From the NCBI GenBank assembly GCA_964016885.1, contig OZ024759.1, positions 33,542,001 through 33,606,000 of the forward strand: a stretch of 64,000 nt of DNA, written 5' to 3'. The notes beneath the pieces are model-generated. The model had not been told where the DNA came from. It was given only the letters and a program-made list of their open reading frames with translations, and ran no database searches. Each line of letters opens with the position of its first letter. Position 1 is the first letter of the stretch. Below, piece by piece: positions 4,357 through 64,000 of the stretch. The position numbers and the translations under genes are program-made. Source of the stretch: Eledone cirrhosa. Taxonomy: Eukaryota.

Positions 4357-5010
4357 CTTTCTATATCGTTCAATATGGAAGCAATACTGTTTCTATATCG
4401 TTCAATAGTAATGTGAAGCTGTTTCTATATCGTTCAATATGAATGTGATACTGTTTCTATATCGTTCAATAGTAATGTGAAGCTGTTTCTATATCGTTCA
4501 ATATGAATGTGAAGCTGTTTCTATATCGTTCAATAGTAATGTGAAGCTGTTTCTATATCGTTCAATATGAATGTGAAGCTGTTTCTATATCGTTCAATAT
4601 GGAAGCAATACTGTTTCTATATCGTTCAATATGAATGTGAAGCTGTTTCTATATCGTTCAATATGAATGCAATACGGTTTCTATATTGTTCAATATGAAA
4701 GCAATACTGTTTCTATATAGTTCGATATGAATGTGATACTGTTTCTATATAGTTCGATATGAATGTGATACTGTTTCTATATCGTTCAATATGAATGTGA
4801 AGCTGTTTCTATATCGTTCAATATGAATGCGATACTGTTTCTATATCGTTCAATATGAATGTGAAGCTGTTTCTATATCGTTCAATATGAATGTGAAGCT
4901 GTTTCTATATCGTTCAATATGAATGTGAAGCTGTTTCTATATCGTTCAATATGAATGCGATACTGTTTCTATATCGTTCAATATGAATGTGAAGCTGTTT
5001 CTATATCGTT
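4357..5010. repeat. 32-bp minisatellite, about 20 copies
   Basis: Unit ctgtttctatatcgttcaatatgaatgtgaag; period 32 (e.g. 4803 to 4835); variants gcaata/gtgata/gtgaag. Confidence 0.95.
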
Positions 5011-6355: not shown

Positions 6356-6614
6356 TCCCTCTCTATATCTCTTTTTCACTTTGATTCTCTCATTTTCTCT
6401 CTATCCTTATTTAGAAGAAGTCATCTGTATTCAGGCCTGGAGAAGAGATGAGTGGTCACCTTTTGGTTTAAAAATGCCCTTGAAACGCCGTGGGTCCCAA
6501 CGAATCCTCTACGATTCGGCCAGGAGTTACGAGTACCTGCAAGCATATCGGGTATAGAGGAGTATGGATTACTGGTTAATATATTCTATTTGCTACTTTA
6601 AGATTGTCACGTAG

Positions 6615-6790
6615 GGCATGTGAAGGCCATTAACATTATCATGTATGGCATGTGAAGGCAGTTAACATTACCATGCATGGCATGTGAAGAAAGTTAAGAT
6701 TATCATGTACGGCATGTGAAGGATACTCAAATTATCATGTATGGCATGTGAAGGAAGCTCAAATGATCATGTATGGTATGGGAAGTAAGT
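6615..6790. repeat. Degenerate ~32-bp tandem repeat, 5-6 copies
   Basis: Recurrent ggcatgtgaagg...attatcatgtat. Confidence 0.8.
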
Positions 6791-7039
6791 TAAGCGTTCT
6801 TCATTGTCGTAGTACTCAATACACACCCACTGGCCGGTCAACGTGACTTCACACCTCCTAGATGTTAACTCTGTTGGATGTGGGAGATATCAGCTCTCCT
6901 CTCTGTATTATATTACTATCAAGGTTTCTACAACCTTCTTATCTCAGCAACTCTATTAACTCCGAACGTGACCTTACGTTTCATCAATGGAAAATGTATT
7001 TTTAATGTGATCTGTGGTGTACATTAACGATGTTATTAT

Positions 7040-11479: not shown

Positions 11480-11482
<3 letters not shown>

Positions 11483-11789
11483 AATTAATAAAAATAATGA
11501 ATAAAAACAAAGAAACAGTTCCTTATATTAAACAATCCATCATGTTACGATCGTTTCTAGGATATATATGTGTGTGTTGGTATGTATATCATATAGATCC
11601 ATGTAAATTTTTTACAAACTATCAGAAGGAATATACATACCTACACATATATATACTGTCTTCAGAAATAATCTATACGATATACATACCAACACAAACA
11701 TATATATCGTAGAAACGATCGGAAAATGATGAATTTTTTAATATAAGGAACTGTTTCTTTGTTTTTATTCATTATTTTTATTAATTTAT
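11480..11789. mobile_element. Foldback element (arms ~11480-11598 and ~11671-11789) with a minus-strand HHR-like core; Penelope-pLTR-like
   Basis: ataaattaataaaaataatgaataaaaacaaagaaacagttccttatattaaa is the reverse complement of the right arm end. Left end abuts (TA)n. Confidence 0.7.
11542..11669 (-). ncRNA. Putative, probably decayed, type I hammerhead ribozyme with a long stem II
   Basis: Minus strand reads attt-CTGAAGA-c...(~100 nt, largely self-complementary)...a-GAAAC-GATC-GTA-acat. Stem III is the palindrome ACGATCGT. The other arm reads GAAACGATCGGAAAAT, suggesting an ancestral stem I attt/aaat. Confidence 0.45.
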
Positions 11790-18550: not shown

Positions 18551-18957
18551 ATACAATTAACAACAAAGAGCGCTTAGAACATAGGTATATCTTTAATTGC
18601 TAACAGTGTTTCGTCCACACTAGAAGTGGCACTCTTCAGAGCATACAGAGTAAATACATAGTATACAAGCATTGACAAAGCCAAAACAGAAGAATATATG
18701 TGGGGATACCATAAGTTGGTATCCCCACATATATTCTTCTGTTTTGGCTTTGTCAATGCTTGTATACTATGTATTTACTCTTTATGCTCTGAAGAGTGCC
18801 ACTTCTAGTGTGGACGAAACACTGTTAGCAATTGAAGATATACCTATGTTCTAAGCGCTCTTTGTTGTTAATTGTATTACGGCTCTGTCCGCTGACATTG
18901 AGCTAACCATATACTGCCTATTTGATAAGGGGAGTGTTACACACTCCCAATTCTCTC

Positions 18958-18960
<3 letters not shown>
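18551..18960. mobile_element. Near-perfect foldback (161-bp arms, 5-nt loop) plus a unique tail, inserted in (TA)n; Penelope-pLTR-like
   Basis: 18551-18711 is the reverse complement of 18717-18877 with 2 mismatches seen. The tail 18878-18960 has the hairpin gggagtgt-tac-acactccc, then (TA)n. Confidence 0.85.
18785..18830 (+). ncRNA. Minimal type I hammerhead ribozyme (mirror copy on the minus strand at 18598-18643)
   Basis: tgct-CTGAAGA-GTgCCAC(ttctagt)GTGGAC-GAAAC-act-GTT-agca. Stem I tgct/agca, stem II with one bulge, 2-bp stem III, GUU triplet. Confidence 0.75.
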
Positions 18961-20636: not shown

Positions 20637-20653
20637 TATAGTAAGAATAATAG

Positions 20654-20785
20654 TTTCAGAAGATGCCGTTAATGGTGAAAGCAGCAATTATTTGCTTAAA
20701 CTCTAATACTTTATATTAATATATATATGTCCAGAATTAGCCTTCGAAACGGCTTGAGCTCAGCCGTCGGGGTCCTACTCGTTCC
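20654..20785 (+). mobile_element. Short dispersed element ending in twin hairpins next to (TA)n
   Basis: The 57-bp end 20729-20785 matches 56392-56448 with 2 differences. The upstream motif gttaa(t/g)ggtgaaa(g/c)cagc recurs at ~9676-9750 and ~56510-56580. Confidence 0.65.
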
Positions 20786-25287: not shown

Positions 25288-25343
<56 letters not shown>

Positions 25344-25347
25344 ACAG

Positions 25348-25394
25348 ATTCCTGATGATTTCTGAAGAATGAAACAGTTCTAGTCCTGTAGAAT
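25348..25394 (+). ncRNA. Type I hammerhead ribozyme motif (copy 1)
   Basis: attc-CTGATGA-t-ttc(tgaa)gaa-t-GAAACAG-ttctagtc-CTGTA-gaat. Stem I attc/gaat, stem III ACAG/CTGT, GUA triplet, U.U at the base of stem II. Confidence 0.7.
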
Positions 25395-25661
25395 ATCATC
25401 TATATTAAAACTTTTATACTCTGCAATGTATTGAGTACCTTACTTACTGTGGTTACCTCCGATTCAACCCGGAATAACGTATAATAATATATATATATCT
25501 ATATATATATATATATATGTGTATATATATATATATATATATGTGTATATATATATATATGTGTGTATATATATATATATATATTTGTATATATATATAT
25601 ATATATATGTGTATATATATATATATATATATGTGTGTATATATATATGTGTGTATATATA

Positions 25662-25859: not shown

Positions 25860-25919
<60 letters not shown>

Positions 25920-25923
25920 ACAG

Positions 25924-25970
25924 ATTCCTGATGATTTCTGAAGAATGAAACAGTTCTAGTCCTGTAGAAT
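25924..25970 (+). ncRNA. Type I hammerhead ribozyme motif (copy 2)
   Basis: Identical to 25348-25394. Confidence 0.7.
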
Positions 25971-26091
25971 ATCATCTATATTAAAACTTTTATACTCTGC
26001 AATGTATTGAGTACCTTACTTACTGTGGTTACCTCCGATTCAACCCGGAATAACGTATAATAATATATATATATATCTATATATATCTATA

Positions 26092-59377: not shown

Positions 59378-60704
59378 ATTATTTAATAAATTTGGAACAT
59401 AATTTTCTCATGTCGACTGGATACAAATAAACAGTAAATTTCCCTGTAGTTGCTTAGTGTGAGTGTGTCCATGAAATATATATACACCCGGTCTGAACAA
59501 AAAGGGACCAAACTCCCACTGTCACTGACTACGTCTCTCCCGCTCTCCCCATCTCACAGTATTATGAGCAAATGGGGGCCCACGAGTTTGGAACGTTACA
59601 CAGTTTATTTCCTGAACTTATGACAGGATATTGTTTTTAGAAAACACAGCCTCTGCAGTTGCTGTTTAACTATTATGTATGCACTTTGAACATATAGATG
59701 CAGTTTCATTTCTGGAGCCTTGATTCATTGAGGGAGAGAACTATGGCCAGAGATCGATGAAATAATATCAGTGATCCAATAAAGAAAACCCGTAACCCCG
59801 ATAAAGAAACATATTTAAATTGAACAGTTTTGTATAAATAAACCCGAGATGTTTCAGGCATTTTGATATGGAAAAAGTTGAAATGTTTATAAAGCAGAAA
59901 ATATTCATCTAATTCTTATTAAAATCTAGAGTAATGATAGCTAAAGATGAGAGAGGCATATGATGGCGACTACAACGGCGATGATAAGAATAGTAATAAT
60001 TATATCTTATTTAGGGTAGTAATTTGGCGGAGGGGAAATTCGGTTAATAATAGTAAAAAGAAGAATGAAGAAAGTGGAGTAAAAAGAAGAATGAAGGAGA
60101 ATGGCGAAGAAGAAAGTGGAGAAAAAGGTGGAAGAGGAAAAAAAGAGGAGGGTATAATGATGAAGGATGTGGAGGGGGAGATGGAAGGAGGGCTGGATGG
60201 ATAGGAGGAGGTTGACTTGATAACAGATAAGAAATGACAAATATCTTAGAGAAACAGACATTAATAAATAAAAATGAATACAATTTAAAACAAATAGCTA
60301 AAGGAACACCACTACCTTCAAACACACCAACAGTACCGCCACCACCGATAACACCAACAACATCACCACAACTACCGATAACACCAACAACAACAACATC
60401 GCCACCAAGAACACCACCAACAACACCATCAATACCATCACCACCAACAAAGACGACAACACCACCACACCCTAGACTACCACCACCGCAACGCCACCGC
60501 CACTAGCGTCAACACAACCACCCTCATCACCACCACTACTACCGACAACACCAGCGCCCTCAACACCACCACTACTACCGACAACAGCACCACACCACCA
60601 CCAGCAAAAGTGAGAACCACAAGGGGAGAGAAACGTGGAGGACAAGAAAGATATGAACAAAAGAAAGCATGTATCTCATATAGAAGAAATAATATATATA
60701 TATA

Positions 60705-60735
60705 TATACACATAAACATATATATATATATACAC

Positions 60736-60790
<55 letters not shown>

Positions 60791-60895
60791 AATATATATA
60801 TATATATATATACACATAAATATATATATATATAAATACACATAAATATATATATATATAAATACACATAAATATATATATATATATATATACAC

Positions 60896-60942
<47 letters not shown>

Positions 60943-61275
60943 AATATATATATATATATATACACATAAATATATATATATATATATATATACACATAAA
61001 TATATATATATATATATATATACACATAAATATATATATATATATATATACACATAAATATATATATATATATATATATACACATAAATATATATACACA
61101 TAAATATATATATATATATACACATAAATATATATATATATATATATATACACATAAATATATATATATATATATATATACACATGAATATATATATATA
61201 TATATATATACACATAAATATATATATATATATATATACACATAAATATATATATATATATATATATACACATAA

Positions 61276-61306
<31 letters not shown>

Positions 61307-61341
61307 AATATATATATATATATATTTATATATACACATAA

Positions 61342-61374
<33 letters not shown>

Positions 61375-61377
61375 CAC

Positions 61378-61418
<41 letters not shown>

Positions 61419-61437
61419 AATATATATATATATATAT
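60705..61437. repeat. Compound satellite cacataaa(ta)n
   Basis: Directly visible. Confidence 0.9.
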
Positions 61438-61705
61438 ATATAAAGGACGTAAAATAAAAAAATATTTTTTTAAAAAAAATTTAAAAAAAATTTTTTTCTT
61501 ACTTAAATTTTCACTCCAACTAATTAGTTTCTGCAATGGGATAAAGACAGTTACGTAATTCAACTGTCGAGAATTCATTGCGTCATCAGGAAGTCTATTC
61601 TCAGTTAAGTCTCCAGGCAATGCGCGGACACTGGCGGCTCATATAAAAATAATAATAATTCGGTAGATCGAACAGCTTGCGAGGACTGAATTCTATGTAC
61701 CGAAA
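61438..61705 (-). repeat. Inverted 268-bp partial copy of the 558-bp unit, including an HHR at 61513-61594 (-)
   Basis: Reverse complement of 61802-62069; left end fused to (TA)n. Confidence 0.95.
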
Positions 61706-61912
61706 GGCGTCAGTCATCTTACCATCCCATTCCTTCTAACTAGCCTCTGTGTCACGTGATTGATTCTTTAGAATCGGCCATTTGACTTGAAGCAGTGAGA
61801 ATTTCGGTACATAGAATTCAGTCCTCGCAAGCTGTTCGATCTACCGAATTATTATTATTTTTATATGAGCCGCCAGTGTCCGCGCATTGCCTGGAGACTT
61901 AACTGAGAATAG

Positions 61913-61994
61913 ACTTCCTGATGACGCAATGAATTCTCGACAGTTGAATTACGTAACTGTCTTTATCCCATTGCAGAAACTAATTAGTTGGAGT
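61913..61994 (+). ncRNA. Type I hammerhead ribozyme, unit 1
   Basis: acttc-CTGATGA-c-gcaatg...cattgc-a-GAAAC-taatta-GTT-ggagt. Stem I acttc/ggagt (one G.U); stem II gcaatg/cattgc with an inner hairpin gacagtt/aactgtc; palindromic stem III AACTAATTAGTT. Confidence 0.78.
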
Positions 61995-62470
61995 GAAAAT
62001 TTAAGTAAGAAAAAAATTTTTTTTAAATTTTTTTTAAAAAAATATTTTTTTATTTTACGTCCTTTATATTATTGTTCTGCATTCTCCTGCATTGAACCAC
62101 CTAGGTACTATGACATAACCTGTGTATTTGCTGGCATGGGCGTGCATCTGTGCGCTTATGTTAGTTGATATATTAAATTATCTATATTTATCTCCAAATC
62201 ACTGATTTGTCGAGCAAACTTGTCAAAACCACTTCTAAAAAAATTTTTTTTGGGGTGTTAGTAGGCGTCAGTCATCTTACCATCCCATTCCTTCTAACTA
62301 GCCTCTGTGTCACGTGATTGATTCTTTAGAATCGGCCATTTGACTTGAAGCAGTGAGAATTTCGGTACATAGAATTCAGTCCTCGCAAGCTGTTCGATCT
62401 ACCGAATTATTATTATTTTTATATGAGCCGCCAGTGTCCGCGCATTGCCTGGAGACTTAACTGAGAATAG

Positions 62471-62552
62471 ACTTCCTGATGACGCAATGAATTCTCGACA
62501 GTTGAATTACGTAACTGTCTTTATCCCATTGCAGAAACTAATTAGTTGGAGT
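62471..62552 (+). ncRNA. Type I hammerhead ribozyme, unit 2
   Basis: Identical to 61913-61994. Confidence 0.78.
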
Positions 62553-63028
62553 GAAAATTTAAGTAAGAAAAAAATTTTTTTTAAATTTTTTTTAAAAAAA
62601 TATTTTTTTATTTTACGTCCTTTATATTATTGTTCTGCATTCTCCTGCATTGAACCACCTAGGTACTATGACATAACCTGTGTATTTGCTGGCATGGGCG
62701 TGCATCTGTGCGCTTATGTTAGTTGATATATTAAATTATCTATATTTATCTCCAAATCACTGATTTGTCGAGCAAACTTGTCAAAACCACTTCTAAAAAA
62801 ATTTTTTTTGGGGTGTTAGTAGGCGTCAGTCATCTTACCATCCCATTCCTTCTAACTAGCCTCTGTGTCACGTGATTGATTCTTTAGAATCGGCCATTTG
62901 ACTTGAAGCAGTGAGAATTTCGGTACATAGAATTCAGTCCTCGCAAGCTGTTCGATCTACCGAATTATTATTATTTTTATATGAGCCGCCAGTGTCCGCG
63001 CATTGCCTGGAGACTTAACTGAGAATAG

Positions 63029-63110
63029 ACTTCCTGATGACGCAATGAATTCTCGACAGTTGAATTACGTAACTGTCTTTATCCCATTGCAGAAACTAAT
63101 TAGTTGGAGT
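63029..63110 (+). ncRNA. Type I hammerhead ribozyme, unit 3
   Basis: Identical to 61913-61994. Confidence 0.78.
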
Positions 63111-63588
63111 GAAAATTTAAGTAAGAAAAAAATTTTTTTTAAATTTTTTTTAAAAAAATATTTTTTTATTTTACGTCCTTTATATTATTGTTCTGCATTC
63201 TCCTGCATTGAACCACCTAGGTACTATGACATAACCTGTGTATTTGCTGGCATGGGCGTGCATCTGTGCGCTTATGTTAGTTGATATATTAAATTATCTA
63301 TATTTATCTCCAAATCACTGATTTGTCGAGCAAACTTGTCAAAACCACTTCTAAAAAAAAATTTTTTTTGGGGTGTTAGTAGGCGTCAGTCATCTTACCA
63401 TCCCATTCCTTCTAACTAGCCTCTGTGTCACGTGATTGATTCTTTAGAATCGGCCATTTGACTTGAAGCAGTGAGAATTTCGGTACATAGAATTCAGTCC
63501 TCGCAAGCTGTTCGATCTACCGAATTATTATTATTTTTATATGAGCCGCCAGTGTCCGCGCATTGCCTGGAGACTTAACTGAGAATAG

Positions 63589-63670
63589 ACTTCCTGATGA
63601 CGCAATGAATTCTCGACAGTTGAATTACGTAACTGTCTTTATCCCATTGCAGAAACTAATTAGTTGGAGT
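63589..63670 (+). ncRNA. Type I hammerhead ribozyme, unit 4
   Basis: Identical to 61913-61994. Confidence 0.78.
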
Positions 63671-64000
63671 GAAAATTTAAGTAAGAAAAAAATTTTTTTT
63701 AAATTTTTTTTAAAAAAATATTTTTTTATTTTACGTCCTTTATATTATTGTTCTGCATTCTCCTGCATTGAACCACCTAGGTACTATGACATAACCTGTG
63801 TATTTGCTGGCATGGGCGTGCATCTGTGCGCTTATGTTAGTTGATATATTAAATTATCTATATTTATCTCCAAATCACTGATTTGTCGAGCAAACTTGTC
63901 AAAACCACTTCTAAAAAAATTTTTTTTTGGGGTGTTAGTAGGCGTCAGTCATCTTACCATCCCATTCCTTCTAACTAGCCTCTGTGTCACGTGATTGATT

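What the first reader, a model, noticed from the sequence alone, without database searches (positions are those of the whole stretch)
61438..62069. Array starts with an inverted 268-bp copy fused to (TA)n, a Penelope-type junction
Seen: 61438-61705 mirrors 61802-62069 with no differences noticed, around a 96-bp spacer. The inversion breaks at ...cctttatat, which has microhomology with the (TA)n flank, and it contains a whole antisense HHR. Known: PLE insertions often begin with a partial inverted pLTR. Inference: the array was inserted recently by PLE machinery from a multimeric RNA rather than growing only by unequal crossover.
Basis: partly seen in the sequence, partly recalled or inferred. 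Interest (0 to 1): 0.7.

Follow-up and report, generated by a model that had tools for sequence, protein, structure and literature searches.

The report
Retrozyme array with Penelope-type inverted start
A tandem array of a 558-base non-coding repeat, each unit carrying a hammerhead-ribozyme motif, starts with a perfect 268-base inverted copy joined to a TA microsatellite; this is the usual footprint of Penelope-like jumping genes, so the array was likely pasted in from an RNA longer than one unit, a known kind of element with a tidy junction.

Summary
61438-61705 is the reverse complement of 61802-62069 (268 of 268 bases) around a 96-base spacer, with 5 bases shared with the (TA)n flank and a whole antisense type I hammerhead (HHR) motif. 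The array holds four identical 558-bp units plus 60 bases and runs off the window. It fits a non-LTR retrozyme of an abundant, diverse family found in several species, with compensatory changes in helix II. A head-to-head 5' inversion in (TA)n is a published hallmark of Penelope-like element (PLE) insertions. It is also routine here: 4 of 6 other HHR-motif loci in the window show it, with aged arms, against 0 of 18 SINE-like hits. The founding insert was probably longer than one unit, because its start is not a family boundary. How many units arrived at once cannot be told. Still missing: read support for this junction (not listed in 4 runs, inconclusive), the far end of the array, an autonomous PLE partner, expression and cleavage. 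Verdict: new member of a known kind. Its modest value is as a footprint linking retrozyme arrays to PLE insertion.

The parts
60692..61437 (.). (TA)n microsatellite with short interruptions; left flank and inferred target (start approximate)
61438..61442 (.). 5-base microhomology shared by TA tract and inverted arm
   Evidence: 5 of 558 unit positions give a run of 5 or more
61438..61705 (-). inverted arm, unit positions 97-364, 268 of 268 identical to unit 1
61513..61594 (-). antisense type I hammerhead motif inside the inverted arm
61706..61801 (+). 96-base spacer = unit positions 1-96; head-to-head junction at 61705/61706
61706..62263 (+). unit 1, 558 bp, 35% GC, no Pfam match for its 79-codon ORF
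61913..61994 (+). type I hammerhead motif: helix I 5 bp, core at 61918, C.A opposition then 6-bp helix II with a 37-base internal arm, palindromic helix III, predicted cut after 61989 (GUU triplet)
   Evidence: covariation
62264..62821 (+). unit 2 (HHR motif 62471-62552)
62822..63381 (+). unit 3, 560 bp (HHR motif 63029-63110)
63382..63940 (+). unit 4, 559 bp (HHR motif 63589-63670)
63941..64000 (+). start of unit 5; array cut by the window end
18551..18960 (+). comparator A: unrelated HHR-motif element, head-to-head arms of 161 bp (2 mismatches, 5-base spacer), (TA)n on both sides
47289..47586 (+). comparator B: head-to-head arms of 137 bp (9 mismatches, 24-base spacer), long-helix-II HHR motif on both arms
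11480..11789 (-). comparator C: head-to-head arms of 119 bp (7 mismatches, 72-base spacer), HHR motif on the minus strand, TA tract at left
41465..41620 (+). comparator D: decayed inverted HHR segment joined head-to-head to a sense remnant of family E; overlap only 16 bp; TA on both sides

Best explanation
The array is made of identical 558-base non-coding units that each carry a type I hammerhead motif, and its 5' end is a head-to-head inverted copy fused to a TA tract, likely the footprint of a recent insertion made in trans by a Penelope-like element from an RNA longer than one unit. Shown: the geometry, the identity of arm and units, the microhomology, the family's abundance, and the same junction at other HHR-motif loci. 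Inferred steps: (1) a source array is transcribed into a multimer or a re-ligated circle; (2) a PLE GIY-YIG endonuclease nicks the (TA)n tract and its RT copies the RNA from a 3' start beyond the window, through at least one unit boundary and through intact cut sites, stopping at unit position 1; (3) the inverted arm arises either when the new cDNA end folds back and copies itself from position 97 to 364, or when the second target strand primes on the RNA at position 364 by pairing of the 5 shared bases; (4) the ends are joined by microhomology. The sequence does not separate the two routes in step 3. The short spacers at all five loci (5-96 bases) lean to fold-back. Later local expansion by unequal crossover may have added units.
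For: Exact head-to-head inversion at the RNA-sense 5' end with a 5-base TA microhomology. PLE insertions often carry an adjacent inverted 5'-truncated copy and favour (TA)n (PMC8557442 passages). Head-to-head is the commonest arrangement and was read as self-priming (PMC3846280 passages). A purified PLE protein cuts and extends both strands of AT-rich DNA and uses uncleaved RNA (PMC11167929 main text). In the window, 4 of 6 other HHR-motif loci have the same head-to-head junction against 0 of 18 SINE-like hits (Fisher p=0.0014, post hoc). Contig record 9 of run X4 crosses the 62263/62264 boundary without a break (62130-62484, 4 other letters), so position 1 is a truncation point and the founder exceeded one unit. 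Arm and all four units share six alleles that are the minority in run X22. Helix II pair 62485/62531 changes from C-G to U-A in the X4 and X6 contigs that span it, and the majority allele at 62474 turns a U.G of helix I into C-G. The monomer folds better than shuffles, z=-4.17.
Against: The junction was not among the joints listed for 4 of 4 runs, and 62564-62687 (which holds the TA-junction position) was skipped by the tool. No RT or GIY-YIG gene was seen in the window (ORF list read by eye; 5 ORFs scanned), and no genome is held, so no partner is identified. A PLE in vitro starts RT at a site not homologous to the target, so the microhomology is not the canonical start. The motif has a GUU triplet and a C.A opposition at the base of helix II (both recalled as sub-optimal), the free fold does not form helix III, and 8 of 9 Xenopus dimers tested in the 2026 preprint did not cleave. 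The comparator loci were found first as palindromes and the motif scan was relaxed afterwards; the strict scan missed A, B and C.
Confidence: 0.68

Rival explanations
1. A PLE-type insertion of only a partial tandem (between one and two units) founded the locus, and the array grew afterwards by local unequal crossover or slippage. This shares the junction mechanism and differs only on the origin of copy number.
For: Partial tandems are the typical PLE product. The 2026 preprint favours local amplification after insertion. Identical units fit a recent local expansion as well as a one-step insertion.
Against: None decisive. The model of Cervera and de la Pena 2020 predicts tandem cDNA from a circle. 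This rival is counted inside the best explanation, as roughly half of it.
Confidence: 0.33
2. The inversion is a DNA-level event: a replication template switch or fold-back repair at the fragile TA tract beside an existing array, or integration of extrachromosomal circular DNA from another array with a fold-back junction.
For: Microhomology and short inverted duplications are general products of end-joining and template switching (recalled). The arm is identical to the adjacent unit. The window is 47% simple repeats by TRF masking.
Against: The inversions in this window sit at HHR-motif loci, all five head-to-head relative to the ribozyme sense. SINE-like copies in the same TA-rich setting show none; their one inverted pair is tail-to-tail and 68% alike.
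Confidence: 0.15
3. The inversion is a read chimera or assembly artefact at the edge of a collapsed repeat.
For: Zero differences between arm and units; homopolymer-only differences between units; junction not listed in the runs laid.
Against: The mirror stops after 268 bases and passes into different flank sequence. Loci A, B and C have the same build with 2-9 mismatches between arms, which a chimera of one molecule would not give.
Confidence: 0.09
4. The insert was made by a LINE (APE-type) machinery through twin priming, not by a PLE.
For: Twin priming gives 5' inversions with target microhomology (search listing only; details recalled). Cervera and de la Pena 2020 left LINEs open as mobilisers.
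Against: No poly(A) tail or target duplication can be judged with the far end missing. The HHR build (short helix I, long helix II, palindromic helix III) resembles PLE variants, and complete loci A and D end in (TA)n with duplicated arms in the PLE manner.
Confidence: 0.08

Closest known systems
Metazoan non-LTR retrozymes (Cervera and de la Pena 2020, PMC7229834: parts 2-3 of 6 and Discussion read; Li, Clavereau and Pollet 2026, bioRxiv 10.64898/2026.07.22.740005: parts 1 and 3 of 5 read, supplements not seen)
   Same: Non-coding tandem units, one type I HHR per unit, GC under 50%, high copy number, self-paired monomer.
   Different: Unit of 558 bp is above the 150-450 bp quoted in 2020. The HHR has a long helix II arm, a C.A opposition and a GUU site. 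Term searches of the two main texts found no description of inverted array ends ('inverted' 0 hits in the 2020 paper; one hit, in a reference title, in the 2026 preprint).
Endonuclease-bearing PLE insertions with an inverted pLTR (Craig et al. 2021, PMC8557442; Arkhipova et al. 2013, PMC3846280; passages read)
   Same: Adjacent inverted 5'-truncated copy, head-to-head, partial tandems, TA/AT-rich target, microhomology at the 5' junction; solo pLTRs can be moved in trans.
   Different: No RT-GIY-YIG ORF here. The tandem part is a multi-unit non-coding array. Tail and target duplication cannot be seen because the far end is outside the window.
PLE minimal hammerheads (Cervera and de la Pena 2014, PMC4209133; passages read)
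   Same: Short helix I, large helix II with an unpaired base at its 5' end, small palindromic helix III; pairs of HHRs 100-700 bp apart on opposite strands were already noted in Schistosoma.
   Different: Here an extra unpaired A faces that base, helix II carries a further 37-base arm, and the motif sits in a tandem array.

Membership tests
Non-LTR retrozyme | Two or more tandem units, each with a complete type I HHR motif | tested here: met
   4 of 4 complete units carry the motif
Non-LTR retrozyme | Non-coding, low GC | tested here: met
   35% GC; six-frame translation shows short frames only; the 79-codon ORF has no Pfam match. LTR/PBS/PPT features were not searched.
Non-LTR retrozyme | Dispersed multi-copy family | tested here: met
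   983 contigs in X1 and 5,924 of 12.47 million reads in X22 laid, 85-100% alike; runs of organisms A-H hold 0.2-0.7 of the words
Non-LTR retrozyme | Unit of about 150-450 bp as first described | tested here: not met
   558 bp; a size range rather than a strict criterion, and the 2026 preprint searched periods up to 1000
Non-LTR retrozyme | Transcribed, self-cleaved and circularised RNA | not testable with these tools
   Only 0.04-share RNA runs were listed and none was laid; no cleavage assay
Type I hammerhead ribozyme | Conserved core with helices I-III and covariation | tested here: met
   compensatory 62485/62531 change in X4 and X6; Rfam models did not detect it
Type I hammerhead ribozyme | Canonical pair at the base of helix II and an efficient cleavage triplet | tested here: not met
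   C.A opposition and GUU; the canonical state is recalled; activity untested
PLE-type insertion | Adjacent head-to-head inverted 5' copy | tested here: met
PLE-type insertion | (TA)n or AT-rich target | tested here: inconclusive
   Left flank is (TA)n; right flank outside the window
PLE-type insertion | 30-40 bp tail or target-site duplication at the 3' end | not testable with these tools
   Array runs off the window; no genome held
PLE-type insertion | Homology of the unit to the pLTR of an autonomous PLE | not testable with these tools
   No genome; pattern scans of metagenome and viral contigs gave 0 loci
Autonomous PLE | RT plus GIY-YIG ORF | tested here: not met
   No such ORF in the unit

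The most novel reading that the evidence does not exclude
Retrozyme arrays are inserted in one step as multimers by PLE enzymes rolling round a circular RNA, and the head-to-head inverted arm at array edges is a direct genomic footprint of that event. I found no such footprint described for retrozyme arrays in the papers searched. This genome, with several HHR families showing the junction at different ages, would let one both name the mobilising PLE and decide between fold-back and second-strand priming as the origin of PLE inversions.
Probability: 0.35. Interest if true: 0.55.

Novelty: new member of a known kind. Interest (0 to 1): 0.33.

Why it matters
That PLEs mobilise animal retrozymes has so far been argued from shared ribozymes, co-occurrence and pLTR homology. 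How PLE inverted ends form is stated as unresolved. An array edge with the PLE junction is a structural line of support, and a genome rich in such junctions makes both questions countable. One locus with one visible end does not settle either, and the junction type itself is well known.

Tried and rejected
Whole genome: none held, so the far end, the empty site and the partner PLE could not be sought. Rfam: 0 matches at gathering level and only chance hairpin matches at E up to 5. Exact-pattern scans: 0 loci in metagenome contigs and viral contigs. Reads: 4 of 24 listed runs were laid on one rotated monomer, 62130-62687. The expected opposite-strand joint 62264/62360 was not listed. X1 pieces are about 80-110 bases and 978 pieces were not shown, so this is inconclusive. 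The two opposite-strand joints and the loose ends of X22 are set aside: its read ends pile up at AATT sites and 85% of its reads run on unlike, so they look like library ligation products. No homology was found between the 558 unit and loci A, B, C or E beyond short low-complexity or core-motif matches. No tRNA and no A/B-box match to recalled patterns. Our-findings look-ups by place and by sequence were empty, as were two word look-ups. Paper searches found no description of inverted ends for retrozyme arrays; subscription papers and bioRxiv supplements were not visible and may hold one. The host looks like an octopod-type genome from its microsatellite texture; that is recalled, not tested, and nothing rests on it.

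Full report
Observation. 61438-61705 is the reverse complement of 61802-62069 at 268 of 268 bases, these are the maximal limits, and the spacer is 96 bases. The array consists of units starting at 61706, 62264, 62822, 63382 and 63941, of 558-560 bp, which differ only in homopolymer length; it runs off the window. The spacer is unit positions 1-96 and the inverted arm is positions 97-364, so the junction is head-to-head. The outer break shares 5 bases with the TA tract, a run reached at 5 of 558 unit positions. The inner break shares one base. The mirror does not continue past 61438 (16 of 60 bases).

The unit. Each unit has a type I hammerhead motif (61913-61994 in unit 1; antisense 61513-61594 in the arm): a 5-bp helix I, the core at 61918, a C.A opposition followed by a 6-bp helix II with an internal arm, a palindromic helix III and a predicted cut after 61989 at a GUU triplet. 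No hit of this score arose in 30 shuffled windows. Rfam does not detect it. The hammerhead-constrained fold is 1.2 kcal/mol above the free fold, and the helix III palindrome can pair between two copies (-9.0 to -10.8 kcal/mol), as described for dimer-acting animal HHRs (PMC4209133 passages). The monomer folds at z=-4.17 against 100 shuffles. The unit is 35% GC with no Pfam match for its one 79-codon ORF. Cleavage and expression are untested.

The family. Of 24 runs listed, 20 hold part of the stretch; runs of organisms A-H hold 0.2-0.7 of its words. I laid 4 of them on one rotated monomer. Organism A has a large and varied family: 983 contigs in X1 and 5,924 of 12.47 million reads in X22, spread from 85 to 100% identity. 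In X4 and X6 the helix II pair 62485/62531 changes on both sides (C-G to U-A), and the majority allele at 62474 improves a helix I pair. In X1 the 62531 change occurs largely without the listed 62485 change, which I could not resolve, and 84 variant rows were not shown. The window's arm and all four units share six alleles that are the minority in X22, so they descend from one recent template. Whether organism A is the window's species is not known. X4 record 9 runs through the 62263/62264 boundary unbroken, so unit position 1 is a truncation point, not a family end. To rebuild that same boundary locally from an insert of one unit or less would need a duplication with exact breakpoints, so the founder most likely exceeded one unit and crossed intact cut sites (inference). 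That points to an uncleaved multimer or a re-ligated circle. It does not say how many units arrived at once.

Is the junction real, and is it special? The reads did not settle the first question: the expected joint was not listed in any of the 4 runs, the TA-junction position was skipped, and X22's joints coincide with AATT library ends. The window itself gives indirect support. Three unrelated HHR-motif loci are head-to-head inversions beside TA-rich tracts with aged arms: A 18551-18877 (161 bp, 2 mismatches, spacer 5), B 47289-47586 (137 bp, 9 mismatches, spacer 24) and C 11480-11789 (119 bp, 7 mismatches, spacer 72). A fourth, D 41465-41620, has a 16-bp overlap. Two HHR-motif loci lack an inversion: E (25352 and its exact duplicate 25928, counted once) and a decayed candidate at 20657. 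That is 4 of 6 besides the array, against 0 of 18 hits of a SINE-like family, whose only inverted pair is tail-to-tail and 68% alike (Fisher p=0.0014). This test is post hoc: A-C were first seen as palindromes, the strict scan missed them, the relaxed scan (0.3 chance hits per shuffle at the lowest score) recovered A, B and C, and D came from similarity to E. TA microhomology at A and C is 3 bases, which is weak (8-10% of positions); none is evident at B or D. Aged arms cannot be read chimeras, so the architecture is real in this genome, and it is routine.

Mechanism. PLE insertions often carry an inverted 5'-truncated copy next to the 5' end and favour (TA)n (PMC8557442 passages). Head-to-head is the commonest form and was attributed to self-priming, and solo pLTRs can be moved in trans (PMC3846280 passages). 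A purified PLE protein cuts and extends both strands at AT-rich DNA, uses unprocessed RNA, and starts at a site without homology to the target (PMC11167929 main text). I therefore favour insertion in trans by a PLE from a longer-than-unit RNA (0.68). The arm would come from fold-back of the new cDNA or from second-strand priming at the shared five bases; spacers of 5-96 bases at all five loci lean to fold-back, though short elements limit the possible range. About half of that 0.68 (0.33) is the variant in which a partial tandem was inserted and then grew locally, as the 2026 preprint proposes. Rivals: DNA-level template switch or circle integration (0.15), artefact (0.09), LINE twin priming (0.08).

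Comparison and novelty. The array meets the sequence criteria of a non-LTR retrozyme (PMC7229834; 2026 preprint), except that the unit is longer than the 150-450 bp first quoted; the RNA criteria are untested. It is not an autonomous PLE. The junction is a known PLE hallmark, and opposite-strand HHR pairs 100-700 bp apart were noted in 2014. Term searches of the two retrozyme papers' main texts found no account of inverted array ends, nor did the listings of eight paper searches; supplements were not seen. Earlier scan notes describe similar elements in other animals (unchecked leads). Verdict: a new member of a known kind, interest 0.33. The most novel reading, that array-edge inversions are a direct footprint of one-step PLE insertion of retrozyme multimers, has probability 0.35 and interest 0.55 if true.

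Noticed in passing
window 18551-18960: Complete small insertion: (TA)n, 161-bp near-perfect palindrome with a 5-base loop and a type I HHR motif on each arm (also a GUU site), an 83-base sense extension, then (TA)n. The cleanest PLE-type junction in the window.
   Followed up: partly
window 47289-47586 and 11480-11789: Two older head-to-head inversions whose HHR motifs share the array's unusual build (C.A at the base of a long helix II) without sequence homology to it; in C, helix II is a long hairpin of about 100 bases rich in TA.
   Followed up: partly
window 25292-25498 and 25868-26074; 41465-41620; 46960-47060: A further HHR family with a long helix III: two exact copies 576 bp apart inside a 7-kb TA tract (local duplication or assembly repeat), a decayed inverted/direct copy at 41.5 kb, and what look by eye like two isolated tail fragments near 47.0 kb.
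   Followed up: partly
window 20645-20785: Decayed HHR-like element (one core change) between TA tracts, no inversion.
   Followed up: partly
window, 18 hits, e.g. 59192-59386, 35615-35808, 42574-42769: About 190-bp dispersed SINE-like family, 73-92% alike; used as the control.
   Followed up: partly
window 55254-56131: Probable Tc1/mariner remnant: 107-bp inverted termini (92%) and an ORF with Pfam HTH_32 (E=2.7e-08).
   Followed up: partly
window 43516-44994: Several adjacent minus-strand frames that read like a broken DNA-transposon gene; no Pfam match for 3 frames tested.
   Followed up: partly
window 4358-5010, 6598-6793, 47724-48600: Minisatellites with 32-, 32- and 30-bp units.
   Followed up: no
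runs X4-X11: Near-identical words of the unit occur in runs labelled with several other organisms; shared ancestry among related species or horizontal spread was not examined.
   Followed up: no
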